This document shows positions 14,247-33,300 of a DNA stretch of 64,000 bases, in pieces; positions within the stretch are counted from its first letter, which is position 1; every line of letters begins with the position of its first letter. This stretch comes from Klebsormidium nitens. Lineage: Eukaryota; Plantae; Klebsormidiophyceae. The notes under the pieces were generated by a model. The model did not search any database. It worked only from the letters and a program-made list of their open reading frames with translations, and was not told where the DNA came from. The position numbers and the translations under genes are program-made. The stretch spans positions 1 through 64,000 of the forward strand of contig DF237153.1 in assembly GCA_000708835.1 (NCBI GenBank), read 5' to 3'.

Positions 14247-17200
14247 ATGGAGATGGAGGAGATTCCAGAGGCAAACACCGTTGGGCAGGACACGACTGAG
14301 CCAGCTTCAAACGAGATTCAGGATTCCGCCGGCAGCCTGCTGGTGAGAACGTGCGCGACCTTGGAACAGCCCGCTGTCTTTTGCCTAAAGCGGCCACACG
14401 GCTTCCTGCTCAAGTCATTCTCTCGATTGCAAACATTGTGATTACAAGAGGCACTCGGCCCCTAATCTCCCTTTTGTGAACAATCACGGTCATTCAGATG
14501 CAAGCACGGTCTGACTACACGGGTCTCTTAGGCACATCTGCGAGGATTCCTTGAGATTGCTCTTGAGTCCAAATCCTCTGAAGAAATCCAAACGAGTCCC
14601 TGGGCTAGCTTCCAATTTGAAATGCATGTGCGGTTCAGTCATGCAGTCTGCTGACTGCTTCTCGAACATTCCACTCTGCAGAGGCACACGACGACCGTCT
14701 ACGGCCAGCAGTGGTTCAAGAGCAAGGAGACTCCGACCGGCCGGGGCCCCAAGGACCTCGCCGTGGCCTGGAAGACCCTCCACGGCCACGGCATTCTCGT
14801 CGCTGCTGACTCCGCGTCAGATTCCGCTGCCAAGATGTTCACCAGCTTCCAGGACGTTCCTGCCCTGCTGGTTTACTGCGCACGCCTCCGGGGCCGGAGC
14901 AAGCACCTGTACGAGTGCCTGCTCGAAGTGACCCCTTCGCTGCTCTACTACGACCTGGACTACTACGTGCCTTCGAACGTGTGCGCGGGGGACTCCGAGG
15001 ACGCGGTCGGGGCGCGGGACGCAGAGTTTGCTGAGCGGAAGCGGCACTTTGAGCGGCTCAGGGACGGGTTTCTGGAGGCGGTTCTGGGGGTGTCGAGAGA
15101 GGCGGTGCGGTTCGAGGAGAGCACTGCGCACGGAGGGGTCCCGGGGGGGTTCAAGTTCAGCGTTCATGGGGTGCTCAAGGGCTTCTACCTGGAGGACAGC
15201 CGAGCGCGGGGCCTGTTTGCAAAGGCATTCGAACAGTTCCTGAAGAACCCGCCCCCGCAGTTGGCGCGCAGCGCCGAGTTCGTCTGGACGGAGGATCAGC
15301 GGGGCCGCCCAAAGCTAATCTGGGACGGCACGGTCTACTCCAAGTTCCAGAACTGGCGCATGCTGCGGTCGAGCAAGAAGGGGAGCGACCGCGTCCTCGA
15401 GCCGAGCGAGGGCAGCTCGGAGCTCATTGTGGACCACCTGGCGGGGCTCTACTCGGCAGCGGCGCTGCAGTGCTGCGCCCGGCTAGACGTGGCGCGCCTC
15501 GAGGCGTACCTCCAGCAGCACGCGCCCACCCTGTCGCGGCCGCGGCGCCCAACGATGCGCGTGAGAGACGCGGGCCTCGCGGAAGATGGCGGGCAGAATC
15601 GGGCGGACCTGGGCGAGGAGGAGCAGCGCGTGCTGGTGGAGTGCTACCAGCAGGAGCACCCCGGCGCTACGCTCGCGCGCGTTCACGTGGTCGGCTCGGG
15701 GGTCTTCACGGTCCACTTCGACGTGCCAGAGCCCACGTGTCTCCTCGCCGGCCGTCCGCACACGTCCCCGGGCAACAACAACACGTACCTGCTCTACCGC
15801 CGAACCCGGCCGGGGGTGGCATTGTACAAGTGCCATTCCGCCACCTGCAGGTGAGCAACCACGGGCAACAGGGACCGCTTCAATCCGATTCCTATCTTCC
15901 AAACAACGATCCATGAAATACGTTTTAGGAGGCCCAAGGCTGGACGATAAGAATCAATCCGAATCGCCCGCGGTTTCTGCTTCTGGAACAGCTTCCGTCA
16001 CTAGCGTCGTGAGGTTCTGCAAGATACTTCAGGGTCGACAGTAGGATTCGTTTGGCACTCTGTAATGCTAGACTCTTGCAGCTGGCGGTGTATCAGTCAG
16101 TCAAACTCTGCCCTCATGATATAAGCGTTGCAGCTTCCAATGTTGAAACTTTTGACTCGCCGATAAGCCCGGCCATACCTCGTTCTTTTCGGTAATTCTG
16201 TGCTTAGCAGCGTGTACAAGTCGAAAGTCCCCTCGTAGTATAAGCTCTGCAGTTCTTTTATGGCGGAACTTTTGACTCGCAGCCAAGCCCAAACCCGGCC
16301 ATCCCTCGTCCTCCGTGAAACCTTGTGAATTACAGCGTCAACCAGTCAGAACTTCCCGTCAGATAATAAGCTCTGCAGCTTCTCACGGCAGGACTTTTTG
16401 ACTCGCAGCTAAGCCCGGCCATACCTCGTCGTTTCTGAAAATTCGTGGGTAACAGCGTCGACCAGTCAAAACCTCCCGTGAGAATATAAGTATTGCAGCT
16501 TTCCAGGTCGGAACTTTTGACTCGCCGCCAAGACCGGCCATCCGTCTGTCTGTCCGTGTGTGCTTAGGAGCTCAGACCAGTCAAAACCTCACGTCAGAAT
16601 ATAAGCATTGCAGATTTCCAGGTTGAAACTTTTGACTCGCTGACAAGCCCGGCCATACCTTGCCGTTCGGGATATTCAGGGACTAACGGCGCGGACCAGT
16701 CAAAACCCCCCGTCAGAGTATAACCATTGCCGCTTTCCCCGGCGGATTTTTTTGACTCACTGCAAAACCCGGCCATCCCTTCTGTTTGTGAATTCCCCTT
16801 CGAGCTAAAGTCTTCGCCCTCTCGTTTTGCAGCGGAGTTGCGCGTGTGCTCCATTTGGAGACAGAGCAAATCACGGGCTGGACGGAGGATTATGTCAAGG
16901 CGGACGGCATGCACCCGTATCCACTCTTCTCCCTCGATTCCCCTGCCAAGAAAACGACCCTCGTGTCAGCCAACAAGGGCATTGGGAAGTCGAAGGAGGG
17001 AAACGACTGGCTGGAGAGACTTCTGCAACGGTTTCCGTGTGCGACCTTCCTCATGGTCGCAGCCAACGTCACGCTCGCTCGGAAGTATGCGGAGGATACA
17101 CGGCGGTGCGGCGTCGCGGCCACGCTGTATCTCGATGTGCTTGGAAAGATCGAGGCGAACAGGGTCGTTGTTTGCGTAAACTCCCTCCCCAGACTGGCTG

Positions 17201-20019
17201 CGAATTTTGACGTGGTCATAATGGACGAGATGGACATGATCCTGTCCAACATGAACTCGGACGTCATGGCCCGGAAGAAGATGGTCTTCCTGGCGCTGGA
17301 AGGGGCGACGCGGCACGCCAAGGTCGTGCTCGGGATGGACGCGAACATCGGCAGCCCGCGGGTGATGCAGTGGCTGCACATGGTGCGGCCAGATGCTGCC
17401 TTGCACACAATCCGCAACCGTGGGGTGTACCCGGGAGCGCGGAAGGCCACGATCAAGTACATCCCTGCGACGGCGCGGTTCCAGAAGGACCCGTACGGCC
17501 CGGCGATTGCCGAGACGTTGGAGTCTCTCGCGAAAGGCGAGCACATCATAGTAAGTGTCTTCTCTCCTCCGACCCATCCTTGCGCAAGACCGAACGAGAC
17601 ATTCTGCCCCGCTCCTCGCTAAAAGAGCCTACGAAGAAGTGGACTCTGTGCTTCTAGATTGCGCTTGGTGAGCGCCTGCTCCACGTCCCCCTTGTTTTTT
17701 CAGATTGACGAGCAAGCCTTCACGCTAGATCTGTTTCGTTTTTCGAAGTGACTTCGTGCAAGCCTTTGCCAAGAAAGACGTCAAGGCCGCCCTACCTTTA
17801 TTGCCAGAATCAAAGTCAGCTGATATGGCGGAATCTGCCAAGTCTGATCTACGCTTTAGAGAAAGGAACATCAGGACAGTCCGCTCTTTCTGACCAAACT
17901 CATTGAAGGATTTCAGTCTGATGACGTGGCAGATTTCTTAAACGGAACCAATGGGCTGCTGCCACGTCAGCATAAGGAATTCTGATTGCTTCTGCACGAA
18001 TCTGATCTTGCTGGGTGGGTTTAAAGACGTTAAGACTGCCCCTCGGAATCTGTCCTGGTGGGCTTAGATGAGCGCTTTTATCTAGTGACGTGGCAGCTTT
18101 TCGAAGTGAAGAGGCCGTCACGTCAGCAGAAATGAGTCTTCGTCAAAGTTAAATGCAAGTCTGAACACAGACGCTTTGTTTGGACCAAGAATCGGGCCAC
18201 CGATGCTAACGCCCGTGGGTGCCCCGTGGTTCCATTCCATTCCGTCCAATTCTGTTGGAACAGACATCTGAATTCGCCGTTTATCTTTTTGCAGGCGCCT
18301 TCGTCCAGCAAGACGTACGTCCTGAAGCTCGAGGAAGCCTTCAAGCAGCGGTTCCCAAGCGACGGCCCGACTGCCAAGTCAGGGAAGTTCTTCTACTCCA
18401 AATCTACGACGAAAGCGGCGAAAGCCGCTCTCGAGCTGGCGGTCACCGACCCCGACACCCACATGACGGCAGACCTGTGCGCCTCCTCCCCCGTGATCGG
18501 CCCCGGCATCTCGCGAGAGCGGCCCCACTTCGACAGGCTCATCGCTTTCGCCTTGAACAGCTTCGAGCGGGGGCCGACCGTCGAGACCTTCCTCCAGCAG
18601 CTCTTCCGCGATCGTACGGTCACCGACTTTACAATCTACGTCAAGGAAGGCGCGGGCCCCCGGTCGCTTCCCTCGACCGTGGAGGACGTTTTCTGCGCGA
18701 TCGAAGACAACGATCGCGAGCTCGCCAAGCTCTTGGGCAGCACCGACCATCTGGATTTCCTGCTGGCCCCCTCCGGAACGCGGCCAGTCTGCAACAGGAA
18801 CTCCCCCGCCTGCGTCCTGTATGCGAACAACGTCCTCACGGTCGCCAACAGCTTCCGCAACTTCCCGGAGCTCCTGCGCGCAGACCTGATCAAGCAGGGG
18901 TTCGTCGTCCACGAGGAGTACCTGGGCAACGAAGCCCCCTCTTTTCAGGTGCGCAGAGTGGGTCCCAAAGACGATGACCAGGACCTCGCTGACGATATTT
19001 GGCGCGCCAGGTATGTGGTCGATGACAAGGCGTATTGCAACCTCCTCGAGAAGGATGAGATCGAGACCCTGGACGAAGTGGAGGTGCGGCAGAGACACAT
19101 CTACGAGTGCATCCGCAACGTGCACAAGGTGGATCCTCGTTGCGTTAACCACAACTACGAGGCGGTGCACTGCGGAAAGGAGCTCGTACCGTATCAGAAT
19201 TACATCAGGTGAGCGAAGAACGATACAGTAATCCAAGCAAGCTGCGGTTAGGTCGATCTGAGATCGTGCTCAGCCCTGTTCTTTGGAGGCTTCCGAACCG
19301 CTTGCGTGATGAATCTCGCTTTGAAGAATCGACGCTGCTTTCGATTGCCTCTTGGATCAGCACGTCATTCTTGGATCAGCTTTGCCGTGCTTTCTCTCTG
19401 CTTTAGAAAGGGGTGTCTTGTTGCTGTCGGCTTTAGATGTACGGGTGCATCCAGATGACCCTGCAAAGCTCCCCTGTACAGGTTCCAAACGACTCCGTTC
19501 CCCGACCTCATTGACGACCTCGCGAGAGCCCTGAAAGAACGCGACATGGAAGGCGTGACAAAGGATTACGTTGCTGACATGGGCGACATGTCGCTTCGAG
19601 TGCCTCCTGCGGTGATCGTTCTGGCGGAATTGATGGGGTGCGGGCCGGAGGATGTGGAGAGGTGCAAAGAGGATGGGTTTCCGGTCGAGGAGGATGCATT
19701 TCAAACGGTCCACGACACGTTGCTCGCGCAAACGCCCAAAGTGCTCAGCTTTATGCACAATTTCTACGGGATTGATCAGACGGCCGAAACTCTAACGGCG
19801 ACAATGAAGCGCAACGCCATCAAGAAGATTCTCCACATAGGCCTCGGGCTCAACCACATTCCCCCGAAGAAGTCGAACGGGAAGTTCGTAGCTGGCTGGC
19901 CCCACATCTTCAAGCCGCTGCTGTGGCAGGAGGTGCGAGAGAAGTACGGCCGACTGGTTGATTACCAGGCGACACAGACGGCGGAGGTTTGCAAGATAAC
20001 GCCCACAGATGCTTTATAA
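14247..20019 (+). CDS. Five-exon fusion: PrimPol-like archaeo-eukaryotic primase + C-H-C-C Zn finger + UL9/origin-binding-protein-type SF2 helicase
   Basis: Predicted exons 14247-14342, 14682-15850, 16833-17550, 18295-19208 and 19482-20019. All introns are GT-AG and keep the frame (phases 0,2,0,2). AEP motifs YYDLDY, FSVHG and WDGTVYSKFQNWRMLRSSK. Zn finger CLLAGRPH...YKCHSATC. Helicase SANKGIGKS (Walker A), VVCVNSLPRL...VVIMDEMD (Walker B), MDAN, HIIAPSSS, SSPVIGPGIS. Exon 1 is the least certain. Confidence 0.85.
16098..16800 (-). repeat. Tandem array 3 of family-A palindromic box (6 boxes, about 117-125 bp period), inside intron 15851-16832
   Basis: Plus-strand units ACCAGTCAAAAC...ATAAG(C/T)ATTGCAGCTTT...AACTTTTGACTCGC...AAGCCCGGCCATACC, i.e. 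the family-A box in reverse orientation. Confidence 0.95.
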
Positions 20020-20505
20020 GTGCTTCAGGAGGGGGCAGCATAAGTAGGTCTCTCGTGCAAAAGATATCAGTTATCTCTCTGTTCTGATTATTATGACAGA
20101 ATAGACATTCTTGTCTGAGAGTTATCTGTTCTGTCGACCCTAGTCTTCTTTATTGCTCAGAATTGAAACCGTTTTGTACCATAACAAGCCAGCCTAGTAC
20201 CCTTGCAAGTACAATGAATATTATAAACGAGGTTCCCCGACATCAAGACCAGACTACGATTCGGCATCATAGAATCGCCATGCTTGCATGACGCGCCCAT
20301 GGCCCGCAGTTTACAAAAGACTTTGGATGACATGGTATATGAAGCTGCCAATCTGCACGGGTTAGAAGGCTCTATTGTATGGCTTTCCGATGCGAATTGA
20401 CGGGCCGATCCATACCGCACTGCACTCGATGCACCTTGACAATACGATCAATTGCGTCTTTGAGATCTCCCGCCTCTCTGCCGCTTCTCGGTCTCCAACC
20501 GGCCT

Positions 20506-20865
20506 TCAATCCTTAGCGTCACACGAAAGGTAGTTGTACTTGTCCAGGAGGTGATTGAGTGACTCGACATCATGGTGCGGCTTGTTGAAGAAGCGTTTGT
20601 GATATTGGTGAAGGATATTGACACGAGACCGCTCTTCGAAACCTCCATGAGCCAGGAATGCCAGAAGAGCACCCGGCCAATCTATGTTGCCCACTTGTCG
20701 ACAGCTCCCGAAAGCGCGAAGATGACGGATCACAAAGGCGATGAGATTGTAGAGCTCCAAAGCGGTCTCAATCGCCCATGAGTCATCAGTATTCATCTCG
20801 AAAAGATGCTTCACGATCTCTCCGTCGCTAATGAAGCTCCAGTCAAAGCTGAGGTCGGACGCCAT
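20506..20865 (-). CDS. Small hypothetical protein, GGFE-motif family copy 2
   Basis: ATG at 20865 (MASDLSFDW...). Contains IDWPGALLAFLAHGGFEE. Confidence 0.55.
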   Translation of the reverse strand: MASDLSFDWSFISDGEIVKHLFEMNTDDSWAIETALELYNLIAFVIRHLRAFGSCRQVGNIDWPGALLAFLAHGGFEERSRVNILHQYHKRFFNKPHHDVESLNHLLDKYNYLSCDAKD

Positions 20866-21027
20866 GCTCAACAATTGGTTGGTTTTGGAGCAATTGCGTC
20901 TCCCTAAGTATGTCACTAATGGCCGGGCGTGACCACTTTTGCACGTTCTAGGTCGATTTTGCGTGTGGAAGTCACACTCGACATTCGTTGAATAGCATGC
21001 ACAGCGGAATCTAGCCACGGCCGTTAC

Positions 21028-21501
21028 TTGCCGCTTGAGCGAGGGTTCCGTACGTACTTAGGGAAAGAGATTGGGCTGATGATAGTATCAGATTTTCGGG
21101 CCCGTGCAATGGAAGAGCTTGCAGATGGACGCATCCGATGCCGAGCAGTTGGGGTGACCTTCGAAGGTCGTCGGAACCGGATTCGCATGCTTCGACCTGG
21201 TCAGGAGCTCATACTACGCAAGCATTTGATGGATGGATATAACGCACATGGCATCGGCATCTTCGCTCCTACGGAAGACTCGCCTCTGGGCTTTGTTGGG
21301 AAAGAGTTCAAATACCATAATGTTTTTGGCCCAATTCGGAGAGGGTTAGAGATGCAAGCACGAGTGCACCGCGTTAATTGGGGCCGCTATGGACAGTGTG
21401 GGTTTGAGGTGGAGATTCTTAACGATTCAAGCTCGAGTACAAGCTACAACCCTGCTTTGGACGACACGCTCTGCGAGATCATTAGAAGAGAGCGATCATA
21501 G
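21028..21501 (+). CDS. Stand-alone HIRAN-domain protein (degenerate)
   Basis: RAVGVTFEGRRNRIRMLRPGQELILRKHLMDGYNAHGIGIF...LGFVGKE follows the HIRAN pattern (vaGv.f.gr...l..G..l.L.rep.NpyD.nAi.v...lGyv). Probable ATG near 21109. Confidence 0.65.
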   Translation: MPLERGFRTYLGKEIGLMIVSDFRARAMEELADGRIRCRAVGVTFEGRRNRIRMLRPGQELILRKHLMDGYNAHGIGIFAPTEDSPLGFVGKEFKYHNVFGPIRRGLEMQARVHRVNWGRYGQCGFEVEILNDSSSSTSYNPALDDTLCEIIRRERS

Positions 21502-21582
21502 TTTGAAGGACGATTTGTCATCACCGCGGTAGTGCAACGGTTGCCATCATTTTTCTCTATAGACGATAGTTGAACAGATTGT

Positions 21583-22137
21583 ATGGATGCGATCCTTGGT
21601 TTTCGTCCTCATGCACGCGTCGCAATTCTTGACATGGACAAACAGATCCTTGAAAGTGGTCGGTCGGCAATTGTGAGGGCATATCAAGAATTTGGATCCC
21701 TTGAAACGACGTTGGATGCCATTGCGATGGGCGGCATCCGATGTTTAGCAGATCCGTTTAATTTGCCCCATATATGCAGAGCCCTCGTTCGCTCGTTGAT
21801 TGCGGAGGGTTTCCAATCCTTTTGGGATAGAAGCAATGCAGATTGCCCATACATGGTGAAGGTTAGCTGGAGAGCTGCCCTGAGAAATGCAACTCAATCT
21901 CGGCGACGAGCCCGCAAGTTGCGAGTCGTAACATCCAAGGAGAATGTGCATGATGCTCGAGTGCTTTCTCCCCTCGACCACATACAAACAAGAGCAATAT
22001 CCCCATCCTTCTCATCTCGTCCTCCGAGTGTCATCTGGACGGATGATAACGTGCCTGTGCTGGGCCTGGAGGAAATTGCAAACGTGAAACCGCTTCGAGG
22101 TGCTCTCGACTCTCCCAAATCCGCCCGGTCTGGATAA
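21583..22137 (+). CDS. Hypothetical protein
   Basis: 184-aa ATG-initiated intronless ORF, co-oriented between HIRAN and the recombinase. No recognisable motif. Confidence 0.35.
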   Translation: MDAILGFRPHARVAILDMDKQILESGRSAIVRAYQEFGSLETTLDAIAMGGIRCLADPFNLPHICRALVRSLIAEGFQSFWDRSNADCPYMVKVSWRAALRNATQSRRRARKLRVVTSKENVHDARVLSPLDHIQTRAISPSFSSRPPSVIWTDDNVPVLGLEEIANVKPLRGALDSPKSARSG

Positions 22138-22324
22138 CGGAATATATAAAAAAGCCCACTTTCCTATTTCTGTACACCGCTAGTCACATTATCTGGAGCT
22201 AGTAGCTTTTCGGCCGAAAAGTTACGACCCGTCTGGCTACGAAGCCGGCTTATACAAGCTTTTGTAACCAGAAAATTGACAAAAGCGACTTGGCATGTTG
22301 AATTCGTTCGACGATTTTTGAGAC

Positions 22325-23461
22325 GTGAATAATCACATTATCTGGCGAGATGGGCGTTTGGCGTGTCAGAAATTTTATCTGCATTATCTAGAAAACCTGA
22401 AGATGCAAGTGCCCAGCGGAAGCACGAAACGTGTAACCTCCGTAACCAACGGTGAACGGCTGCTGCGCCAGGTCTTTGATGATGGCGATCGCAACCAAAA
22501 CACGATTGCGCAATACGTGAAGCACGTGATGCGCTTGTTTGAGGGCTTGCACAAACAGAGCGACTTCGGCGATCTGGAATGGATCAAGAGTTCCGACACA
22601 ATCATCAAATATTTTCAAGAGACCTACCCGGTTAAGCTCAGTATGCAAAGCACTGGTATTAATCCGCTTTTAGTCGTGTGCAGGAAAGCATTCCCAAATG
22701 ATAAACGACTCTATGATGCGTACTACGAACGATTCACAGAGGTGCGTAGACTTATGGAAGAAGCACGGCCTCCGCCTCAGCAACTCACCGAGCGTGAAGC
22801 GGCCAATTGGAAGAATCTAGATCAGACTACTGAGCGCCGAGTAGAGCTCCAGCAATACGTGAACCGCAAGATTCTGCACAAACGACCAGAGGAGTTGACC
22901 ATCGAGGACAGGATCATTCTGATCCGCCACCTCATCTTATGCCTCTTCACGTACCAACCAGCACCACTTCGAAATGACTACTCAGAGTGCCCGATCGTCC
23001 GTAATAAGGACATCGGGACCGCTGAGGCGCGCGAGCTCATGTCATCCTCTCGGAATTACGTGGTCGAATTCGAGAAGGGCCAATTTCGTCTCGTTTTAAA
23101 AGACTTTAAAACAGTCAAACACCATGGCGTGACAAGCATCGATATGTCCACGCGGTCCAACAGTGTGATTGCTGAAAGCCTGCAGGTATTTCCACGCAAG
23201 TACCTGTTATCAAGGATGAGATCTCCCGATCAGCCAATGACAAGAAATTATATGACAAAGTTCTGCTCGACCGGTCTCTTCAAGGACGCAGCCGTCGGAA
23301 GTTGCCTTTTGCGGAAAATTTGCGTGTCGAACGCGATGAAAGATGCGCCAAGCTTGCGAGAGAGGGAGGAATTGGCACAGCAGATGCTCCACATGGCGTC
23401 TATTGCTCAAAGAGTCTACGAAAAAAAGTACAACCCGGACGGTTCAAAGATTCAATTTTGA
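22325..23461 (+). CDS. Tyrosine recombinase/integrase of the virophage/Polinton-like-virus type
   Basis: Uninterrupted ORF (likely ATG near 22403). Catalytic pattern PLRND (R), DFKTVKHHG (K), SCLLRK (xxxR, His replaced by Leu), MLHM (H), QRVYEK (Y). Confidence 0.85.
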   Translation: MNNHIIWRDGRLACQKFYLHYLENLKMQVPSGSTKRVTSVTNGERLLRQVFDDGDRNQNTIAQYVKHVMRLFEGLHKQSDFGDLEWIKSSDTIIKYFQETYPVKLSMQSTGINPLLVVCRKAFPNDKRLYDAYYERFTEVRRLMEEARPPPQQLTEREAANWKNLDQTTERRVELQQYVNRKILHKRPEELTIEDRIILIRHLILCLFTYQPAPLRNDYSECPIVRNKDIGTAEARELMSSSRNYVVEFEKGQFRLVLKDFKTVKHHGVTSIDMSTRSNSVIAESLQVFPRKYLLSRMRSPDQPMTRNYMTKFCSTGLFKDAAVGSCLLRKICVSNAMKDAPSLREREELAQQMLHMASIAQRVYEKKYNPDGSKIQF

Positions 23462-23508
23462 CGGATATGCACATTTCTCAACTCGCTCAACGCCTCTGCG
23501 GGATTCTT

Positions 23509-23943
23509 TCATGATACTTCGATGCTCGTGAATGCACCCAGAGGAAGAGTGGATGCTTTGATTCCACTCTCCATGTCCAAAGAGCTAGTTATCTGAGGCA
23601 CCTCAAATCCAGCATCGATCAAACGTCGCGCTGTGGATTTATGGAGCTTTTTCGTTCGGCCATTTATGAATCTGTAATAAGCCTTCCGTAACAAAATTTC
23701 GTCATGATGTCTGTAATAATATGCCCTCATATTTGCGTTGTGCTTTTCTGGGTGAATCTTGGCATATTCTCTGTGTTTTTGACACGCTCGACACGGACAT
23801 GGTACATGCGCTCGAGTCTCCTCAGAGGCATTCAAGTTGCCTGCATCCATTTGTTGGACCATTTTCGAGTCCTGTTGATTGATGAGATTATTGTTTTGTT
23901 CTCCAACCGCACCAAAAATGGAGGTGCGTTTGTTTGACGTCAA
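23509..23943 (-). CDS. Small basic protein with aromatic/basic helix (possible DNA-binding regulator)
   Basis: CPCRAC followed by KHREYAKIHPEKHNANMRAYYYRHHDEILLRKAYYRF. Convergent with the recombinase and divergent from the primase-helicase. Confidence 0.45.
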   Translation of the reverse strand: MTSNKRTSIFGAVGEQNNNLINQQDSKMVQQMDAGNLNASEETRAHVPCPCRACQKHREYAKIHPEKHNANMRAYYYRHHDEILLRKAYYRFINGRTKKLHKSTARRLIDAGFEVPQITSSLDMESGIKASTLPLGAFTSIEVS

Positions 23944-23967
23944 TTTTACCTTGCGCTACACAAGGAC

Positions 23968-26809
23968 ATGATGTCTGCAACAGGCCCAGAGCACGCTAGC
24001 ACCCCAGGACCTCAGACGCTCAAGCTCTTCAAGTGCTCTGGGCTCCAGGGCATCCGAGACGAGATTGAGAAACTAGCCGCTGCTGGCCTTTATGCAATCC
24101 CGATCCGACTCTATTGGAAAGATGGCAAAAAGCAAGCCGATTACCCGCGTCGATGGGCGCATATCAAGGATCCTGACTCATGGCGCCAATCTTCTGAGAG
24201 CCCATTGCAGCAAGTGCAGCCTGGTGCTAACGGAGTCGCAATTCTCACCGAGGTCTCCAATCTAATGGTAATTGATATTGATGTTGCGGGCGATGTCATT
24301 CTCTCTCGGGTATGGAGCTTTGGAACGAGTTAGTTGCCAAACACGGCCAACCAAATACCTTGACAGCAAGGTCCGGAAGGAATGGGCTCCACCTCTACTA
24401 CCGAGCAAATTCACCGGGATTGGTGCAAAAGAAGAACTTTGAGACCATCAAGGTTGATGGCAAGGTCTATGTTGTTGATGGACGTAGTATTGGTGGCCTG
24501 GTGTACGCCCAACCCGCAAGCTACATCAATGGCGAGGGCAAACTCGCAATGTATCAATGGCTGAACGGGCCTCCGAGCTTTGATGCGTGCAAGGAGATGG
24601 ATCCTTGGCTCGTCGAGATCATAAATAATCGCAACGGTCAGCGCACAACGACAAGCGAAGACAAAGACGGGCCACGGAACGAACCATTGGCAGCGTCCAT
24701 CGAAGCATCAGAATCGGAGAGTATCGAAGTCGAGCCCAATCGGCGGCCGGCCACAAGCTCTGAGTCTCCACACGGCAAAGAGCTCTTGCTGGCGGGACTT
24801 GCGGAGATGCTGAGGGAGGCAGGCGATTCGACGAGCACGTACGCGGGTACTTTGCCGCATGGTTTGTACGGAACGTACTACTGCTATCGCACGCACGGGC
24901 CTCGAAGGTGCCTCTTTGGCCACATGCACTCGGGAAGCAACAACTTTAATCTGCTCAAGAGGGGCCGGATCATCTACTATCGCTGTCATGGTGCCGAATG
25001 CAGCCACAAGCCGGCCTAAAAGCTTGGGGTCTTGGACGATCTCAAGGCCGCCTTGCAGGACGCAACGACCGAGCCTCCCGTGGATCCCCACGACGACATG
25101 CAAGTGATTACTCAGTACACGAGAGGGACTCGAGAGGTCCAGGATTTGCTTCTCAAGATCGTTGTTGAGCATGCGGCTCCAAAGGCGTACGCCAACCTAG
25201 GACGCCTCTTTGCGTACATGTACATGATCGAGGGCCGCATTCTGGCGACCACCAACGATGCAGAAAAGAGCCGCGAGTCGCACTTTTTTTTCTGGAATGG
25301 TTCTTCGTGGATCCAAGATACCTGCAATATGGTTACGAGCGTCTTCACAAGTCAGATGGGCTGTTTGCTGGCATGGTACGAGCGACAGCAGGAGAGATAT
25401 TTGGGCACTCTGTACTCGAAGCACCGAGACTTGCAGGGCTACGTGGTGGATGGCAATCTCAAGCATCTCGACATCGAAGAGGTCAACTCCACGGTGCTGA
25501 AGAGAATCAGGATGGCCACGGAAGCGTGCATAAAGGAACGAGACGAGAGCATGCCCAGCTTTGGCAAGATCAACGTGCAGGATATTGTTGACGTCCGAAA
25601 GTGTATGCACTCTGTGGTCAACAAGCTGCACGTCCCCGGATTGCTTGACATGTTCGATCAAGACCGTATGGTGGTGAATGCGCCAAACGGGTTGATCGAT
25701 CTTCAAACAGGGGCGCTTCTACCCCATCATCCTCAAGACCTCTGCAATAACATGACGTGTGGGTATATCCAAGGAGCTTCAACGCGGTCCACTGCGAGAT
25801 TCCGGAAGTTTCTCATGGCCCATGTTCTTCCACCAAATGCAATTGCGTGGTTGCAACTGTTGCTGGGGTACTGTCTCACAGGAGAGATTTCCGAGGAGCT
25901 CTTCATCATCGCAGTCGGTCTGGCGGGGGCCAATGGAAAGGGGGTGCTACAGAGAGCGCTTCGTAGAGCAATGGGGACGTACAATTGCGCTGGAAATAAG
26001 GCCATCTTCATCAAGCCAACGTTCAAAGCCAACGCATCAGCAGCTTCAACCCACCTTATGCAGATTCGGACAAAGCGTTTCGTTACCAACTGTGAAGCTG
26101 ACGGAAGCGAGGAGCTCCATGCGACATTTGTGAAGGAGGCGAGCGGTGGAGACGAGCTCGACGCACGCGAGCTCTTTTGTAAACCGCAGAGCTATGTGCC
26201 TCAATACAAGCTTTGTTTGTTCACAAACTACATGCCCCATTTTCCTGGCGACGATACCGCCCTCCTTCGCGGATTGTGCTCCTGAGCTTCGACTATGTTT
26301 TCAAGAGTCCGGACGAGCTCGACGAGAACAATAAATCGCACAAGCCAATTGATTTGAGCATCAAGCCCTACTTCGAGTCCGACGAAGGCGCGGCAGACCT
26401 ACTTGATTTTCTCGTTCAGGGCGCAGCAATGTATTATGCGAAGAAGAGGCTTGCACCCACCCAGAAAGTACTCTCGCCCGTCCCAGAGGCATTCAAAACA
26501 GCGGCAAAGGAGTTTGCAGATGAGAACGACAAACTCCAGGCGTTTATAGATGATTGTTGCATTACAGAGGGTCCTGATTTGAAAGTCGCCAAGGCTGATT
26601 TCGTCGAGGCCTTCAAAAACTTCCTATATGCAGGTGGGCACGACACAGGCTTGGCTAGAGATGGGCTGACACGAGCAATGCGCGTGAAAGGCTTCTTGCA
26701 AACGCCGCCGGACGGCAATAAGGGGATTATGATCCCGATGCGTGGCAATAGTAAAGTTCGGGGAAGAGGATACTTTGGAATCCGTTTGAAAACCGATGAT
26801 GACATTTAA
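23968..26809 (+). pseudogene. Bifunctional primase-polymerase (Prim-Pol) + Zn finger + D5-like SF3 helicase, disrupted
   Basis: N-terminal NGVAILT...VIDIDV, TARSGRNGLHLYY and VDGRSIGGLVYAQP. Zn finger CLFGHMH...YRCHGAEC. D5-N FFFWNGSSW and NAPNGLIDLQTG. Walker A GLAGANGKG, Walker B FVTNCEAD, motif C LFTNYMP. Lesions: frameshift near 24305, in-frame TAA at 25017-25019, frameshift near 26268. Confidence 0.9.
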
Positions 26810-26879
26810 GAGGAAGAAGAGAAAAGCGCCGAAGAATTGGCCGCTAACGAGAAGGATTAAGAGTCGAAGGGTTAGATAT

Positions 26880-27370
26880 TGATCAATCGAGCACGTGATA
26901 CAGATGATACACGAAATCGGCCATTTCAAGTGGGCAATGTATCAACGTTTTATTGTTACTTTTTCTTCTCTTTGTTCCGCATTTTGGTGCGGGTTCGGCC
27001 TTCAGGTATGCAGCATTGTGTAGGGAGTGGGGTTAAAGATTGCAATGGGTGTGCTGTTGTGTCGATGTGCCTTTTTTGAGGTGATACAGATGATACAAGA
27101 TACACACGTAAAGTGTATAAAGAATTTTTAGAGAATAAATACGTTTCACATATATAGGAGCACATGCAGCAAGAACGTGTATCAACCGTATCAATCGTAT
27201 CACACCAGAACAGCCCCATTGCAACACAATGCTCATGCAGAACACAAGAAAGTGCCCCTTTCTCGACCACAGTTAAGGCCGTTGCAATCACTTTTACCTC
27301 ATCAAAGAACACATTATGTACCGTTTGGAGCATGATCTAATACTTGAGTTTTTGTATCAATGTGTGTATC
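26880..27370. other. Putative replication origin: convergent GATAC/GTATC iterons around an AT-rich core
   Basis: GTGATACAGATGATACA at 26895 and 27081 (the latter extended by AGATAC). Inverted GTATCaaccGTATCaatcGTATC at about 27177-27203. Further GTATC at about 26939 and 27354-27368. About 70-bp AT-rich segment between the opposed clusters. Confidence 0.55.
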
Positions 27371-27485
27371 ATAAGGAATCCACACCATATGTGTAGAAAG
27401 CGTCCTTTCTGAGCTTCAAATGTTCACTCAGCTGCATGGATGTTCAAAATGGTGCGTAACAGAAAGAGATCAATTCAGAAGGACC

Positions 27486-30400
27486 TCAACATTGCCCTCT
27501 CTTTATCGAGTCTCTTAACGGATTGCTAGCCTCTCTCCAGTAGACAGCGTACTTTGAGCGCTCAAACAACGTGTCGAGGATTGTCGTGACTCTGCTCAGC
27601 AGCCGCTTAATGCTCGTAATCTGCTGGAGGCTCGCCGCACATCTTTTGAGCCCGGAATTGATCCTCTCTGAGGCCGTCGTGATCGTCTGGCGATGTTGCG
27701 AAAAGCTGTCAATGAACAGTGTCGGAGCGCACGTGTGCGTCGCGTAGCGCTTTGCGCCAGACGGCGCGCAGCTGACGGGCCCACTATGGAATCTGTCCAC
27801 AACAAAACAGACAAACTTGGCCATCGAGGGCACCCGGTTGAGAAACCACTCTTGGGCATTGCAAGCCGCGTCCTCCACGATCGTCAGCCCTCGAAGAGTC
27901 TTGAACGGGAAGCGCGTGATCAAGACGGTTCCCATGTCACAAACCGATTCGCCCCCTTTTAGCCAGTGAAACCCGAGGGGCGCCCGATCTTGACAGCACG
28001 CGATGAAAATCCCGGCGCGCCCTTTGGAGGATCGAGGGTTGGGGGCGCTGCAGTGTTGGGTGAGCCGCTCCTCCGAACCCCTCTTTCCCCGACCGGCTTC
28101 GTCTTCCCAATCGACGAACCGAGGCCGGCCGTACAGTAAGGGATGGAACGAGTAGGTCGAGACGGCGCCGGCCCGCTCCGCGTAAGTCGCTGACGGCGCT
28201 CGAAGGAAGCCGCCCTCTTTGTAGCACAAAGGCTCTCGAACTTCAAGCTCAAATAGAAGCGAGTTGGCAGCCCCCTTCAATGCCGCCCCGCGCTGCTCGG
28301 CATACTCCATTGCGGCCCCCTCCAGCTGACCCGCAAGCCTCAGCTTCTCGCCTTCGATCGCCCAGAGGTGCTCGGTCGCATCATGGAGGGCGGCCAGAGG
28401 CGACCGCGACAAGGGCCCTGGCCGGTTTGCGCTGGGCTCGAAGCAGAGGAGGTTCGTCGCGTAGATGTCGCGCACGATCGGCCGCAGCGCCGCCGGAAAG
28501 GTATACTGTCCGCCAACAACGGGATGGAGGCGCAGGACGGCCGCCAGCATAGGGCCGTCGTTGGAGAGAAAGGCCATCCCTCGCGCATCGAGAGGCCCCT
28601 CCAGCAACACGTGTCTCAGCAGCTTCAGAGTGACGATGCGCCCAAATACCCAGGAATACCTGGGGATGAGGAGGGCATGGAGCAGGGCTCCATACGGCTG
28701 GAAGTGCGTGGGGCACCAACCGGTCGGCCCCACCGGCCCCTCCTTGAGAAACCCTTGCATCCAGGGCCGCCTCGGGACCCCCCGGCAGACGGCACACGTG
28801 GCCGGGTCAACACAAGCCCCCGACTCGATCGCGAGGTCGACCAAAGCAGCAACGTTGGTCGGAAGCCCCTCCCGCATAGCGACGAACTCCTCCGGCTTTA
28901 AAGGCGCGTTGCTCCCTTGGGCCGGGGCCTTCCGAAAGTTGCACCAGCGAAGCGCCAGCGCCCGTATTGCCGGCCGTAGCTCCGAGAGGCCGTTCCGGTA
29001 CTTCCAAGGGCAGTCGATCCCCTCCAGCGGCACGTCAGAGGGACGCACCCCGCCCACGCTTAGCGGAGTGAAGCCCCCAGCAACCCTCGGCGCCTCGGGG
29101 TCCGGCTCACAATTGCTGTGCAAGGACGCCTCCATGCCAGAATCCCGCATCGCGCTTGAGTTGGCAAAAAATGTGCCGTCGAAAGTGATGACCTTGTCCC
29201 GCCTAAAAGCGTAGGTCGACAGCTCGGAGCTCGGCCCCTCCGTTCGCTCCGGCCTCAGGGGGGTGCCGGCCGCACGCGCCTCTGCCTCGGCCGCCTCCAC
29301 TTCGCTCGAGTAGAGATGGGAACAATCCAAGCGCGAGCAGACGTGCTGGATCCTCGAGCGTGCTGCGAGGTCGTTGAAGGCCTGCATGGCGGCGTCAAAG
29401 ACCCGGTCGTCCAGCCTGGAAACGTCCGGCCCCTCAAGGCTCCTTGTGGCCATGTCACCGGCCTCGAAGTTGAGGCTGTGGGCTGCTCCAAGGGCTGCGG
29501 CAAAATAATTGCGCAAGAGGAGCCCGTGCGAGATGAGGTTGGTGCCGGAGAAATTGAAGATGCCGTCCTCCTGCAAAAAGGAACAACATCACCGTGGATA
29601 TGCGTTTAGGAGAGCCTTCATTCTTTCCAAGACTTGAATACAGCAGACCATGTCTTTGAACGAAAAGTTTGCGTCCGCTTTGAGTATTGTCGGCCAGAAG
29701 GGCTTGCTCAATCTTCAAGATTTGGGTGCTTCAGCCTGTACCTGCAAAGATACTCAAGCTGCTATTGGAACAATGATGCACGACTTTCCTTTCTTGAGCA
29801 ACAATTCACCCGGCCCGCTTTATGTCGAGTCGGTCTTGCCTCAAGAATGTTGCGCATTATGCTGCAGTGCGTGGACTGATTTGCGATGGCCCATGGATCC
29901 CCATAAAGGGTTGGCAACATGTTTGAAATGTCTGGATCTTGGACTGCACAGCGCACTTGATTGTCTGACCACAACCGAGGCTCGAAAAAAGTACGAGATC
30001 AAAGACCTTGCTCCGCTTCAATGGACCTCTCATCCTTTGAAAACGGTTCAAATTCGTTACTATCGGGAGGTCGACGTACGTGTGCTTGCTATCCGGGAGC
30101 GAGGAGGTCCGGTGGGCTTTAGGGAGGCTCAAGAAGCTCGACAAAAAAAGATTATAATGCAACGGAGGAAAAGGCTCGTCAAGCATTACGAGGATCTTGC
30201 GAACCTAGGAAGGAGCTTCCAGACGCAAGCCATACTAGCTGGTCTCAATCTGCCAGAGTGCATTGACCTTCGAGCAAAGCTCGAGAGCCCCAAGGAAGAA
30301 TCCGAGCGCATCTTTCGGGAGGAAGCGATTCAGCAACTCTCATTCCTTCGTCGTATGGTGCCCTTGGAGTCTCCGAAGAAGTATTTGATGTTTTGGACCG

Positions 30401-32378
30401 AACCAGACTACTCGCCCACTATCAAAGGTAAGTGCAATATTGACTACCTCAAGGGAAATGCTCTTTTACCTTCGGAAGCAGCATACAAGCGATATAAGGA
30501 CTCTGTACTTCATCGATGTGCCATCAACCCGTGTGATGAAGGTGTTAGCTCTCACCTGGCCGTCGTAGGCTACTAAGCAGCAAGCCGCCTCTCGCCCTGG
30601 GGCAATGCGGCAGACCCTCCGATAGGTTGTCACCTCGTATCTCGCTCCGGCCGTTGTCAGCGCCCCCTTCCGGCTCTCCACTTGCCATGGTCGGCCGCAT
30701 GGCGAGAGCGCCTCGGCGGGGCGTGGGGCGCAGAAGTACTTTGCCTCGTCCCTCTTCCGTACACCCTCGTCTCCCCACCGCTCGCAAAGGCTCACAACAC
30801 TCGCTCCACCCTGGCTCATGACCGTGTTGACCTTCTTGTGGCTGTGCCCTATGTCAAGGGCCGCCGCCGAGAGACACTCCCAAGGCTCGAGCGTCCCCCG
30901 GTGCGTGCACACCACCTTTGAGTCGGGCCGACGGCAAACCGAATCGTTGCACACCAAGAGCCTCCTCGCCCCCGCTTCCCGTTGCGCGACTCTCTCGGCG
31001 CGTCTCTCAGCAAGACTTTGCGTCGCCTCGCTTTTGCAACCATCGATTGCGCGCTCTGTCGGTGGCAAAGTTTGCTTCGAGAGCACCCTTAGAAGGTGCC
31101 GGCAGCGTTCCAAACCCAAGCAGTCGATGCCGCTGCAGTGCGCAGTCTCCCCTCCAAGCACGCAGACCACGGGCTCCTCTCCAGGGTCGCTCACGACGAA
31201 GACCCGCAGCTGCGGCCCGCCCTTCCACGCCCCTGCGTCCAACCCAAACAGTGCACTCCCCACGCACCCCCCTTGTTCCAGCGGCAGCACCCAAGGCGCG
31301 CCGTTGGTCACCTCCCGCGCGAACGAACGGCTGTCGTCAAAGGCCGTGAAGATGGCTTCTCCATTCTGCCACCAGCCGCTCATGGAACGGGTCTCCTCCA
31401 GGAACGCCATATCATGATCACGGCACCCCCTCCGGCCGCAGAGGCACCGAAAGCTGCCCATGTGGTCGACCTTGACGAGCCGTGGGACGTTAGTGAGGCC
31501 CCGTTCCGTCGCGGAGACTTCCAGAAGGCGGCCACTAGAGGCGTCGAGCAGGGCACAAGAAAGAGGCCGGGAGCAACAGCAATCGGGGGGATCTTGCTCC
31601 GACGGAGTTCCGACAGGACCGCCAGCGTGCCGAGCTCCCGTGGACTTGGCCCCTCCTCGAGCGTTCTCTTGACACCCCGCCTCGAAAGGGCGGCCGCCTT
31701 GGACTCGCGGCAGTACGGACACGAGGCGAGGTCCCTCCTCTGGACGAAGAACTGGTAGCCGCCCTCGCTCGCCTCCTCCCCTGACCGTACCTCTCGAAGC
31801 TCCTTCGTACCAGGGAAGGCTTCGTACTTGGTGAAGAGCTCCTCCTGAGGAACAGGGCACCCGCTCGCGCTCGAGACAAAGGGGCGTCCAACTTCATACT
31901 CGGCATTCACGCACCGCAGGCACAGAAGGTGCCTTCCTCCGCCCCGGCAAATGAGTGCCCCGCCCCGATTTCGTTTCCTCTCCCAGATGAAAGGATTGCA
32001 CCCTCGAGCGTAGACGGCCCCCTTTCCGCCACAGGTGCGCCCAAGGCACGTCGAGCCGAAACCGCCCCGTGCAAAAGCTCCGGCAGGCCGCAGGCTGAAA
32101 GCGAGCCCGTAATCAAACGCAAAGTCGACGGCCCCTCGCTTGGCCGCATAGGAAGCGTGCCCTCCCCTCACGCCCCCAGCATTTGGCAGGGGCGGGACGG
32201 CAGCCGGGACGCTCTTGATGTCGCTGAAGAGCGGGGCCGGGCCCTCGAAGTGGACCGCTGCGCAGCTCCTGACGGTTTGACCGGCCTTCAGGAACTCGTG
32301 TAGACGCTCTGAGGCTGCTGGCGTGGTCGAGGCAAGTAGAATGCTGCTCGTAGCTTCTGATGGTTTTGCAAGGTCCAT
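27486..32378 (-). mobile_element. KDZ (Kyakuja-Dileera-Zisupton) superfamily transposase gene with Cys clusters and SWIM-like fingers
   Basis: Exons about 32378-30556 (one apparent frameshift near 31535) and 29570-27486. The phase-0 GT-AG intron 30555-29571 restores YDGQ|EDGIFNFS. Catalytic-type motifs TFDGT, GIFIACC...GGES, VEDAAC, VVDRFH and SERIN. SWIM-like CLCGRRGCRDH and CSGIDC...CRH. Confidence 0.85.
29650..30576 (+). CDS. Intronless protein with XPA/Rad14-like Zn finger and XPA-C-like helical domain, nested antisense in the transposase intron
   Basis: 308-aa ORF. CALC...CLKC followed by LTTTEARKKYEIKDL...RYYREVDVRVLA...GG...REAQEARQ resembles the XPA minimal DNA-binding region. N-terminal LQDLGASACTCK is weakly F-box-like. 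Confidence 0.65.
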   Translation: MSLNEKFASALSIVGQKGLLNLQDLGASACTCKDTQAAIGTMMHDFPFLSNNSPGPLYVESVLPQECCALCCSAWTDLRWPMDPHKGLATCLKCLDLGLHSALDCLTTTEARKKYEIKDLAPLQWTSHPLKTVQIRYYREVDVRVLAIRERGGPVGFREAQEARQKKIIMQRRKRLVKHYEDLANLGRSFQTQAILAGLNLPECIDLRAKLESPKEESERIFREEAIQQLSFLRRMVPLESPKKYLMFWTEPDYSPTIKGKCNIDYLKGNALLPSEAAYKRYKDSVLHRCAINPCDEGVSSHLAVVGY

Positions 32379-32574
32379 CCTGATTGACAGAGAAACGGGA
32401 GAATCTGACGGTTGAAACACCTGGCAGTTTTCGATCTCCCTAAGTCTAAACACACCCAATTTGATTGCACAGTTGTGAGTAGGATAGCTTCCTCAATCCC
32501 TAAGTATGTTTGACCCATTCAGAGCCTCTTGCAGAAGTCCTCTGCGGCTCCGGTGTCTAGGGTCACGAACAATC

Positions 32575-32760
32575 CGTTCCCACGGCGTGCTTGATGGACC
32601 CGGCATACCCACAAAGATGTACCAAAAAACGCCCAATAGATTCTTATATGTAATACGTCTTTTCTTGGTACAGGGTGATTTTTGTGCCCGACGGCTGGAT
32701 TTCCGTTTCAAGGGGCGAGTCCGGCCATGCCCTGCAACATGCACAAAAGAACGTTGCGCG
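32575..32760 (+). repeat. Isolated family-B palindromic repeat unit (about 1.3 units)
   Basis: CCGGCATACCCACAAAGATGTACCAAAAAACGCCCAATAGATTCTT...TTTCTTGGTACA...AGGGGCGAGTCCGGCCATGCCC. Confidence 0.9.
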
Positions 32761-32832
32761 ATGGATGTCTGCCAGCAGCGGTATCGCGCTTGAGGCGCTT
32801 GATCTAACTCGGAGTTCACAAGCTTAAGGCAA

Positions 32833-33300
32833 ATGCATGAGTCTAAAAGGTCATCTGGACGGATGGAACAAGGCAAGTCGCCGAAATCAACGTGTCGCTT
32901 TCTGCCACTGCCTCTCTGTAGAAATCTGTTTGGCATCGACCGCAAAAGCGACCTGGACAAGGACGACTATCTGAAGAGGTGCCGATTCGTGTCGGGTGTT
33001 GTCATGGGAAGCGGCTGGGATTTGAAGCATCACATAGACCTGCTCGCGTTTAATCAGACCTTTTGGCCCCACTGGCAGGCTTTACATGCAGAATTCCAAA
33101 AGAGCGGGGGTTTCGAAGACCCCGAGTGGCCCATCTACAACCTCAACGACAACACGCTCTGCTTCGAAAGGTTCAAGAACAACGGAGAACCGATTCAAAG
33201 AATGGAGACATCAAAGACCTTCTACAAGCCAGGCCGGGCGCAGATGCTTGGCAAGGACGCGCGTAAGGGGAGTTCGGGGAGTCCAGCTAACGTTGTTTAG
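32833..33300 (+). CDS. Small hypothetical protein, GGFE-motif family copy 3
   Basis: YLKRC...GSGW...HWQALHAEFQKSGGFED. Lies between family-B repeats. Confidence 0.6.
   Translation: MHESKRSSGRMEQGKSPKSTCRFLPLPLCRNLFGIDRKSDLDKDDYLKRCRFVSGVVMGSGWDLKHHIDLLAFNQTFWPHWQALHAEFQKSGGFEDPEWPIYNLNDNTLCFERFKNNGEPIQRMETSKTFYKPGRAQMLGKDARKGSSGSPANVV

What the first reader, a model, noticed from the sequence alone, without database searches (positions are those of the whole stretch)
22325..27370. Phage-satellite-like gene order (integrase - small regulator - primase/helicase - iteron origin) in a eukaryotic nuclear genome
Seen: YR (+), a small divergent basic ORF (-), Prim-Pol/D5 (+), then the iteron cluster directly downstream. 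Established: PICI/SaPI-type satellites use int, regulators, pri-rep, ori in this order, and YR plus D5-like genes occur in virophages and Polinton-like viruses, which normally also encode capsids. No capsid is visible here. Inference: an endogenised satellite or plasmid-like parasite of a large DNA virus. The intact YR alongside a triple-lesioned replicase suggests the copy is replication-dead but possibly still excisable.
Basis: partly seen in the sequence, partly recalled or inferred. Interest (0 to 1): 0.85.

Follow-up and report, generated by a model that had tools for sequence, protein, structure and literature searches.

The report
Giant-virus satellite replicon in algal genome
This is a broken copy of a roughly 5-kb mobile DNA unit, present in many copies in a green alga, that carries a recombinase, a primase-helicase, a likely replication origin and giant-virus-type promoter motifs but no capsid gene nearby, so it is likely a coat-less parasite of giant viruses parked in the host's chromosomes.

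Summary
The observation largely holds. The window has a tyrosine recombinase (YR, 22403-23461 +; Cre/Xer fold), a 117-aa basic ORF (-), a Prim-Pol/D5 replicase with three breaks (23968-26809 +), and ten TGATAC repeats around an 80% AT core (0 of 2000 shuffles). An identical protein record is labelled Klebsormidium nitens; the flank has host genes split into exons. The unit is a multi-copy family: YR and replicase share contig lengths in 8 cases, are fused in one gene model, and are collinear in a 7.7-kb contig of another study that also keeps the repeats. New here: the giant-virus early-promoter octamer AAAATTGA lies upstream of the YR and the small ORF, the only 2 of 71 window ORFs with it. 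The YR belongs to the virophage/Polinton-like virus (PLV) type, not to bacterial PICIs. No capsid or packaging ATPase was found in the window. However, the species holds 7 PLV capsid genes whose linkage to this unit I could not test. No att pair was found, and one of the three breaks is absent from the reads. Verdict: likely a capsid-less, helper-dependent, PLV-derived element (0.5); a plain PLV end module remains possible (0.3).

The parts
22168..22225 (.). Likely left edge of the unit; includes a 24-bp near-perfect palindrome at 22202-22225 (candidate recombination site, inferred)
   Evidence: The X5 contig's match begins at 22168, and two X3 contigs leave the window sequence after 22220. 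Palindrome is I6. No partner copy found at the right end.
22272..22279 (+). Exact giant-virus early-promoter octamer AAAATTGA, 131 nt upstream of the YR start
   Evidence: motif taken from 10.1101/2022.07.28.501842 section 9.
22403..23461 (+). Tyrosine recombinase, 352 aa, virophage/PLV (OLV11-like) type; open frame with a one-residue insertion before the catalytic Arg
   Evidence: The name OLV11-like rests on virophage-type context and PMC4642659 passages, not on a direct comparison with OLV11.
23509..23862 (-). Small basic ORF, 117 aa; likely DNA-binding (inferred), no family
   Evidence: No Pfam or NCBIfam hit. Weak Atlas look-alikes are unnamed, one cluster viral (0.90, low recognition). 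Its core has higher summed depth than its neighbours in X3.
23940..23947 (-). Exact AAAATTGA, 85 nt upstream of the small ORF start; a one-mismatch copy lies on + 53 nt upstream of the replicase start
23968..26809 (+). Prim-Pol / D5-like SF3 helicase replicase pseudogene (about 940 codons); breaks at about 24295-24308, 25017-25019 and about 26270; C-terminal domain likely winged helix
   Evidence: The C-terminal model (pLDDT 67.9) matches ASFV C962R best (E 0.013) and RFX winged helices only weakly (E about 1).
26896..27371 (.). Iteron-like cluster: 10 TGATAC copies, several 9 nt apart; likely replication origin
   Evidence: folding z -3.0. The first pair and the next inverted copy are kept in the X5 contig after an unaligned 3' part of the helicase (tables 5 and 7).
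27110..27155 (.). AT-rich core (80% AT) flanked by converging repeats (+ at 27082 and 27091; - at 27179, 27188 and 27197); likely unwinding site
   Evidence: Most AT-rich 45-mer between 20 and 30 kb.

Best explanation
The stretch 22168-27400 is a decayed copy of a multi-copy Klebsormidium element made of a virophage/PLV-type tyrosine recombinase, a small basic protein, a Prim-Pol/D5 replicase and a repeat cluster, and it is likely a capsid-less satellite that is switched on by an infecting giant virus. SHOWN: gene content and order, repeats, promoter octamers, many diverged copies, breaks in this copy, and no capsid or ATPase detected in the window. INFERRED steps: (1) on infection, the giant virus's early transcription machinery would read the AAAATTGA motifs; (2) the YR would excise a circle; (3) the replicase's C-terminal winged helix would bind the TGATAC repeats, the SF3 ring would melt the AT-rich core, and Prim-Pol would prime replication, as with P4 alpha and pRN1 ORF904; (4) copies would re-integrate through the YR, recombine with each other, and might travel in helper or PLV particles. 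This copy cannot make a whole replicase as assembled; it could at most be complemented in trans by another copy.
For: LINKAGE: 8 contig lengths are shared between YR and replicase records (8 of 26 YR contigs of 6 kb or more; 0.02 expected by chance). K. nitens gene model P0040 fuses YR residues to Prim-Pol/D5 in the same order. A 7,700-nt contig of another study is collinear over 22168-26075 and rejoins at the repeats. COPY NUMBER: 12 replicase gene models labelled K. nitens, one of them identical to the window's; many diverged contigs in the best-holding sample. HELPER: exact AAAATTGA upstream of 2 of the 3 genes; only these 2 of 71 ATG ORFs of 100 aa or more in the window have it; 7 of 20000 shuffles give 2 of 3. 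The same motif precedes PgVV Yrec and TVpol and a transpoviron helicase. Klebsormidium carries NCLDV core genes. NO CAPSID SEEN: Pfam on 15 + 117 ORFs and on read-through frames of 19200-22402; of 29 profiles built from 853 viral-locus ORFs, including MCP, penton and ATPase clusters, only the YR and D5 profiles hit the window. The 2,486 nt upstream in the X5 contig do not match the window's upstream DNA. Scans of viral contigs with family-level queries or patterns found no full-length relative (one 25-residue match).
Against: K. nitens has 7 PLV major capsid genes (PMC10120064 supplement rows), and YR plus primase-helicase beside a repeat is a described PLV end module (PMC11296320 passages); linkage of these capsids to this unit is untested. 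My capsid profiles were virophage-type and may miss a PgVV-type MCP. No att pair and no empty site were found. Only 1 of 39 virophage-locus YRs has the octamer upstream, and its conservation in other copies of this family was not seen. YR and replicase distances do not co-vary across 10 linked pairs (Spearman 0.06, Mantel p 0.36). The winged-helix match is weak. The X5 contig has depth about 2 and shows single-base gaps in its own YR. Origin function, excision and helper dependence are all untested.
Confidence: 0.5

Rival explanations
1. It is the replication/integration end module of an ordinary endogenous Polinton-like virus (PgVV type), whose capsid module has been lost here or lies in other copies; the repeat cluster is part of the terminal repeat.
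For: 7 PLV MCP genes in K. nitens; Streptophyta are listed under the PgVV group. Yrec is the most widespread information gene of PgVV-like PLVs, and PgVV uses the same early promoter. End-module model in PMC11296320. AEP-SF3 fusions are common PLV replicases. 4 of 10 examined viral loci with related YRs carry a Sputnik-type MCP and 6 of 10 a Pox_A32 hit.
Against: No morphogenetic gene detected in the 64 kb. The shared sequence begins only about 235 nt before the YR. The family YR forms its own branch (17 rows, SH-aLRT 100, quick tree) apart from all 21 YRs taken from capsid-type or other viral/metagenome loci. No full-length family-level relative in viral contigs.
Confidence: 0.3
2. It is an autonomous nuclear DNA transposon (Crypton-like excision and integration plus its own replicase) that no longer needs any helper virus; the octamers are relics or chance.
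For: Many diverged copies in one genome inside transposon-rich islands; the YR alone has a 3% chance of the octamer in its own shuffled upstream sequence.
Against: Two exact octamers on the coding strands (7 of 20000 shuffles); intronless open frames; ancestry among virophage-type YRs rather than any Pfam Crypton family.
Confidence: 0.12
3. It is a fragment of an endogenised giant virus genome, with the gene order repeated only because such fragments were duplicated.
For: AAAATTGA and D5 helicases are NCLDV features; Klebsormidium has NCLDV insertions; one related YR lies in a 175-kb contig with an NCLDV capsid (L005); the best solved relative of the replicase is ASFV C962R.
Against: No NCLDV core gene in the window. 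Copies are 50-80% identical in protein with different flanks, which fits a small mobile unit better than a duplicated viral chunk.
Confidence: 0.08

Closest known systems
PgVV/Gezel-14T-type Polinton-like viruses and OLV-group virophages
   Same: OLV11-type YR, primase/polymerase-SF3 helicase replicase, AAAATTGA early promoters before the YR and replicase genes, integration in algal genomes.
   Different: No MCP, penton or A32 ATPase found; about 5 kb instead of 15-30 kb; no long terminal inverted repeats seen; Prim-Pol (PF09250) instead of TVpol; iteron-like cluster.
Transpovirons (Mimiviridae, pacmanvirus pltv)
   Same: Small, capsid-less, helicase-centred, helper-virus promoters including AAAATTGA; thought to derive from PLVs by loss of the structural module.
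   Different: All known transpovirons encode pPolB-SF1 helicase and have terminal inverted repeats; here an SF3 Prim-Pol/D5 and a YR, resident in a host nuclear genome.
Satellite phage P4 replicon and PICI/SaPI satellites
   Same: Integrase, small gene, primase-helicase and repeat origin; P4 alpha binds origin repeats through a winged helix; intact relative P0036 passes TIGR01613, P4-family primase.
   Different: Eukaryotic host; YR not of a phage-integrase family; AEP-type rather than Toprim primase; no family-level relative in bacterial or archaeal genomes; no packaging-interference genes seen. PICI gene order is recalled.
Archaeal plasmid pRN1 (orf56/orf904)
   Same: Prim-Pol + SF3 + winged helix replicase with the origin directly downstream of its gene.
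   Different: The pRN1 origin is a stem-loop without iterons; there is no integrase in the minimal replicon; the small gene here is on the opposite strand.
Cryptons
   Same: Eukaryotic DNA elements with a tyrosine recombinase (passage).
   Different: Cryptons carry no primase-helicase or origin (recalled); this YR matches no Pfam family and is related to virophage-type YRs.

Membership tests
Polinton-like virus | Double jelly-roll major capsid protein in the element | tested here: inconclusive
   None found in the window, but no PgVV-type MCP profile was available and other copies' flanks were not read.
Polinton-like virus | A32-like packaging ATPase | tested here: not met
   No Pox_A32 hit; ATPase profiles of 18 and 4 members built from viral loci gave no hit in the six frames of the window. 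Holds for this copy only.
Polinton-like virus | Minor capsid protein (penton) | tested here: inconclusive
   A virophage penton profile gave no hit; pentons are too divergent for this to exclude one.
Polinton-like virus | YR or RVE integrase plus pPolB or primase-helicase | tested here: met
Polinton-like virus | 15-30 kb with terminal inverted repeats | tested here: not met
   No long inverted repeat in 18-34 kb (longest 36 nt at 72%); the shared unit is about 5 kb.
Transpoviron | pPolB-SF1 (Tlr1-like) helicase | tested here: not met
   The helicase is D5-like SF3; the defining feature is.
Transpoviron | No capsid genes and helper-virus promoter motifs | tested here: inconclusive
   Promoter motifs are present; capsid absence is shown only for this window.
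Transpoviron | Linear episome replicating in virus factories and packaged by the helper | not testable with these tools
   Needs infection experiments.
PICI/SaPI or P4-like satellite | Phage-type integrase at a bacterial att site | tested here: not met
   No Pfam, PHROGs or NCBIfam integrase hit; eukaryotic host; no att pair.
PICI/SaPI or P4-like satellite | Primase-helicase followed by an iteron origin | tested here: met
   Met as sequence arrangement; origin function not tested.
PICI/SaPI or P4-like satellite | Divergent repressor pair and helper-packaging genes | tested here: not met
   One small ORF of no family, tail-to-tail with the YR; the feature is recalled.
Crypton | YR as sole enzyme, short terminal direct repeats | tested here: not met
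   A replicase and repeat cluster are linked to the YR; boundaries unresolved; the feature is recalled.

The most novel reading that the evidence does not exclude
A second, independently evolved kind of transpoviron: a capsid-less satellite of giant viruses that pairs a PLV-type tyrosine recombinase with a P4-like iteron replicon, lies as a large family of integrated copies in the nuclear genome of a streptophyte alga, and is woken by the giant virus's early transcription machinery, making it the eukaryotic functional counterpart of phage-inducible chromosomal islands.
Probability: 0.35. Interest if true: 0.85.

Novelty: new variant of a known kind. Interest (0 to 1): 0.62.

Why it matters
Known integrated parasites of giant viruses (virophages, PLVs) carry capsids, and the known capsid-less ones (transpovirons) use a different replicase and have no integrase. 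A capsid-less, host-integrated, helper-promoter-driven family would fill that gap. It would offer a candidate iteron origin for a eukaryotic D5-like replicase, where origins are only hypothesised, and would point to an uncultured giant virus of Klebsormidium, a model for plant terrestrialisation. It also warns that annotated K. nitens 'SF3 helicase' gene models include broken copies bridged by predicted introns (P0196, P0040). Even under the plain-PLV reading, the repeat cluster and promoter motifs give direct tests of the PLV end-module model.

Tried and rejected
CONTAMINANT OR CHIMERA: rejected; one sample's contigs cover all 30 bins of 13.7-33.6 kb (it may be the window's source, so it is not independent), another study's contig is collinear, and host genes flank the island. 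BACTERIAL PICI ANCESTRY: rejected (empty; the best-ranked plasmid matches shown are 23-31% identical and none of 468 records covers 80% of the query). SEARCHES THAT GAVE NO CONTEXT: no whole genome is held. The single metagenome scan gave one distant locus (1 of 80 stretches). Viral scans with family-level queries were empty or trivial. ENDS: no repeat over 10 nt shared by the two ends; the sequence that follows 22220 in other copies is not in the window. A tandem-repeat element seems to begin just right of the cluster and may have removed the right end. CO-EVOLUTION of YR and replicase: not found (fragments cover different regions). DECAY OF THE YR by substitution: 8 of 108 conserved columns, 4th highest of 20, not decisive. 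EXPRESSION: no RNA holder listed; X7 and X8 laid nothing on the unit; neither is evidence. Rfam: 0 matches in 19-35 kb. The wide structural search of the C-terminal model was not finished when I stopped, and the viral fold library was not searched. The gene maps in the PMC10120064 dataset are figures and gave no text; bioRxiv supplements (PgVV gene tables) could not be seen and may bear on the capsid question. The careful YR tree did not finish; the quick tree is quoted. Contig depths were not used as copy numbers.
Full report
SETTING. The window has two parts. Beyond about 35 kb lie host genes in exon-sized pieces (F-box/LRR, two kinases, PRKCSH). From about 5 to 35 kb lies an island of tandem arrays and intron-poor ORFs. 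A protein record labelled Klebsormidium nitens is identical to the window's replicase pieces, with a predicted intron bridging two of the breaks (P0196), so the host is a Klebsormidium-type streptophyte alga. No whole genome was available.

RECOMBINASE. The ORF from ATG 22403 to 23461 (352 aa) has no Pfam, PHROGs or NCBIfam hit. It has 26 relatives among 1276 candidates at 50-82% identity, mostly unnamed, two labelled K. nitens. A profile reaches 2206 proteins at E up to 0.001. Arg, Lys and His are invariant and the second Arg and the Tyr nearly invariant in a 16-row alignment with outgroups. The model (pLDDT 72.8; residues 295-343 poor) matches Cre at E 3.5e-4, then Xer and lambda integrase. 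An outgroup alignment found 49 loci among 128 candidate stretches in viral contigs (21-32% identity). Of 10 of these loci scanned (75 ORFs), 4 carry a Sputnik-type MCP, 6 a Pox_A32 hit and 1 an NCLDV capsid. This fits the OLV11-like YR of virophages and PLVs (PMC4642659, passages), though I did not compare it with OLV11 itself. In a quick tree of 64 rows the 17 family rows form one branch (SH-aLRT 100) apart from the 21 locus-derived rows; the nearest outgroups are unnamed metagenomic proteins of unknown context. The window copy has a one-residue insertion just before the catalytic Arg, absent from the other 20 rows and present in a zero-difference contig, so 'intact' may not mean active.

REPLICASE. 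Prim-Pol and D5_N domains and P4-type primase profiles span 23968-26809. Against P0036 (985 aa) there are three breaks. Longer relatives number 11 among 3648 candidates and shorter ones 30 among 3307. Of 38 compared, 6 cover at least 85% of P0036; two of these are gene models that may be spliced. Twelve gene models are labelled K. nitens. In run X3 the stop is carried by a zero-difference contig (13.7 of 46.1 depth; it ends 30 letters beyond the stop), while other contigs read another letter. The only contig over the third break has one base more, which keeps the frame open (33.3 of 33.3). That break may be an assembly error or belong to one of two near-identical copies; contigs drop variants, so this cannot be settled. 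The closest solved relative is ASFV C962R (E 1e-17). The C-terminal model matches it best (E 0.013) and RFX winged helices only weakly.

REPEAT CLUSTER. Ten TGATAC copies lie at 26896-27371, against a shuffled maximum of 9 in 2000 shuffles (mean 3.9) and at most 3 per 500 nt elsewhere. Two plus-strand copies (27082, 27091) and three minus-strand copies (27179, 27188, 27197), 9 nt apart, converge on the most AT-rich 45-mer between 20 and 30 kb (80%). In the X5 contig, about 820 nt of the helicase 3' part do not align, yet the first repeat pair aligns and the next inverted copy appears in the loose end at about the same distance. A diverged contig of X1 also runs from the helicase end into this region (table 5). 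So the cluster travels with the replicase. That it is an origin is inferred from P4 alpha and pRN1 (PMC4234260, abstract and first part of section 18). It could instead be a recombinase-binding array.

A FAMILY, NOT A ONE-OFF. Eight contig lengths are shared between 35 YR-bearing and 35 replicase-bearing lengths (0.02 expected; 8 of 26 YR contigs of 6 kb or more). This is indirect: order and distance were not seen, and 18 of 26 had no match. Gene model P0040 fuses YR to Prim-Pol/D5 in the window's order. The 7,700-nt X5 contig (another study, depth about 2) is collinear from 22168 to 26075, with identity falling from about 94% to 83%; its first 2,486 nt do not match. YR and replicase distances do not co-vary over 10 linked pairs (p 0.36), which fits shuffling between copies or noisy fragments. 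The left edge lies near 22168-22220, beside a 24-bp palindrome. No right-end partner was found.

PROMOTERS (new here). Section 9 of 10.1101/2022.07.28.501842 (read whole) reports the giant-virus early motif AAAATTGA upstream of PgVV Yrec and TVpol. PMC11788076 (passages) reports it before a transpoviron helicase. The window has 6 exact copies (2.8 expected; 7 of 100 shuffles reach 6), so the count alone is unremarkable, but placement is not. One lies 131 nt before the YR start, one 85 nt before the small ORF start, both on the coding strand, and a one-mismatch copy lies 53 nt before the replicase. A third exact copy inside the YR's last codons is not a promoter candidate. Only these 2 of 71 ATG ORFs of 100 aa or more have it within 150 nt, and 7 of 20000 shuffles of the three upstream regions give two hits. 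The 150-nt window was my choice. Against a general rule, 1 of 39 virophage-locus YRs and 20 of 488 viral-locus ORFs have it. Conservation in other family copies was not seen.

CAPSID QUESTION. Pfam on 15 and 117 window ORFs and on read-through frames of 19200-22402 found no capsid or A32 ATPase. Of 29 profiles built from 853 locus ORFs, only YR and D5 hit the six frames. However, PMC10120064 lists 7 MCP genes for K. nitens, cluster PC_0089 (supplement rows), and places Streptophyta in the PgVV group (passages). Its gene maps are figures I could not read. PMC11296320 (passages) describes YR plus primase-helicase plus repeat as a mobile PLV end module. I had no PC_0089 sequence to test with, and could not read the flanks of other copies. 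The decisive test is therefore open.

MECHANISM. Most likely (0.5) this is a capsid-less PLV derivative. Giant-virus early transcription would express YR, small protein and replicase; the YR would excise a circle; the replicase would bind the repeats, melt the AT core and prime; and copies would re-integrate. All four steps are inferred. Rivals: PLV end module with capsids elsewhere (0.3), helper-free YR transposon (0.12), giant-virus fragment (0.08; Klebsormidium NCLDV genes in PMC5294986, passages).

KNOWN VERSUS NEW. It works like P4 or a PICI in logic and like a transpoviron in lifestyle, but it fails membership of both: it has no phage integrase or bacterial host, and all transpovirons encode pPolB-SF1 (PMC11071308, passages). 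Ten literature searches, seen as listings only, showed no paper describing this family or iterons in a PLV; the library lacks most subscription papers. Also seen as passages: PMC11244446, 10.64898/2026.06.19.733378, PMC12220804, 10.1101/2022.07.28.501842. PICI gene order, Crypton features and the KDZ motif are recalled. Earlier scan notes gave no look-alike and one P4-origin analogy.

VERDICT. A real feature; new variant of a known kind; interest 0.62.

Noticed in passing
window 14655-19212 (+): A second replicase-like gene in pieces: an AEP-like primase ORF (14655-15851; motifs recalled, no Pfam hit) followed by a UL9/CyRepA1-like SF2 helicase (Herpes_ori_bp E 1e-12; CyRepA1; phrog_4913), interrupted by a 115-120-bp tandem array at 16119-16781. 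Diverged copies exist in reads.
   Followed up: partly
window 5577-6877, 9995-11284, 16119-16781: Three tandem arrays of 108-120-bp units sharing an AGTCAAAAG-like core; possibly subterminal repeats of one mobile element family.
   Followed up: no
window 27489-29588 (-), with 30469-32492 (-) and 32540-34900: A 700-codon ORF with a KDZ-transposase-like motif (PF18758 only at E 0.17; motif recalled), further long ORFs, and a visible imperfect repeat of about 120 bp. Many diverged contigs lie on it. It starts about 115 nt right of the repeat cluster and may have disrupted the unit's right end.
   Followed up: partly
window 20992-21501 (+): Stand-alone HIRAN-domain ORF (Atlas score 0.93, 28 of 30 hits PF08797). 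It and ORF 21574-22137 lie in a multi-copy stretch that elsewhere continues without the YR unit.
   Followed up: partly
window 11988-12728 (-) and 11500-11900 (-): ORF matching phage family phrog_38666 of unknown function (E 3e-13), with a near-duplicate of its N-terminal part just downstream (read-out).
   Followed up: no
window 22181-22196, 22330-22345, 22382-22392: Three copies of a CATTATCT-containing repeat upstream of the YR, and CACATTAT again at 27310; candidate recombinase or regulator binding sites.
   Followed up: no
window about 22963, 25074, 25819: Three separate three-base insertions in this copy relative to other copies laid on it, each in frame.
   Followed up: partly
window 22450-25400 versus flanks: Zero-difference contigs over the YR and Prim-Pol have about half the depth (14-18) of contigs on either side (33-45), with a second diverged version at similar depth. 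This could be two haplotypes, or a near-identical second copy with a swapped middle.
   Followed up: no
window 23660-23855: The small ORF core has far higher summed depth than its neighbours (170 in X3; 289 for the 23660-24323 bin in X6), so it may also occur in other elements.
   Followed up: no
P0026 (K. nitens gene model): A YR fragment fused to a different, NrS-1-like helicase (PF19263), hinting that this YR also pairs with another replicase.
   Followed up: no
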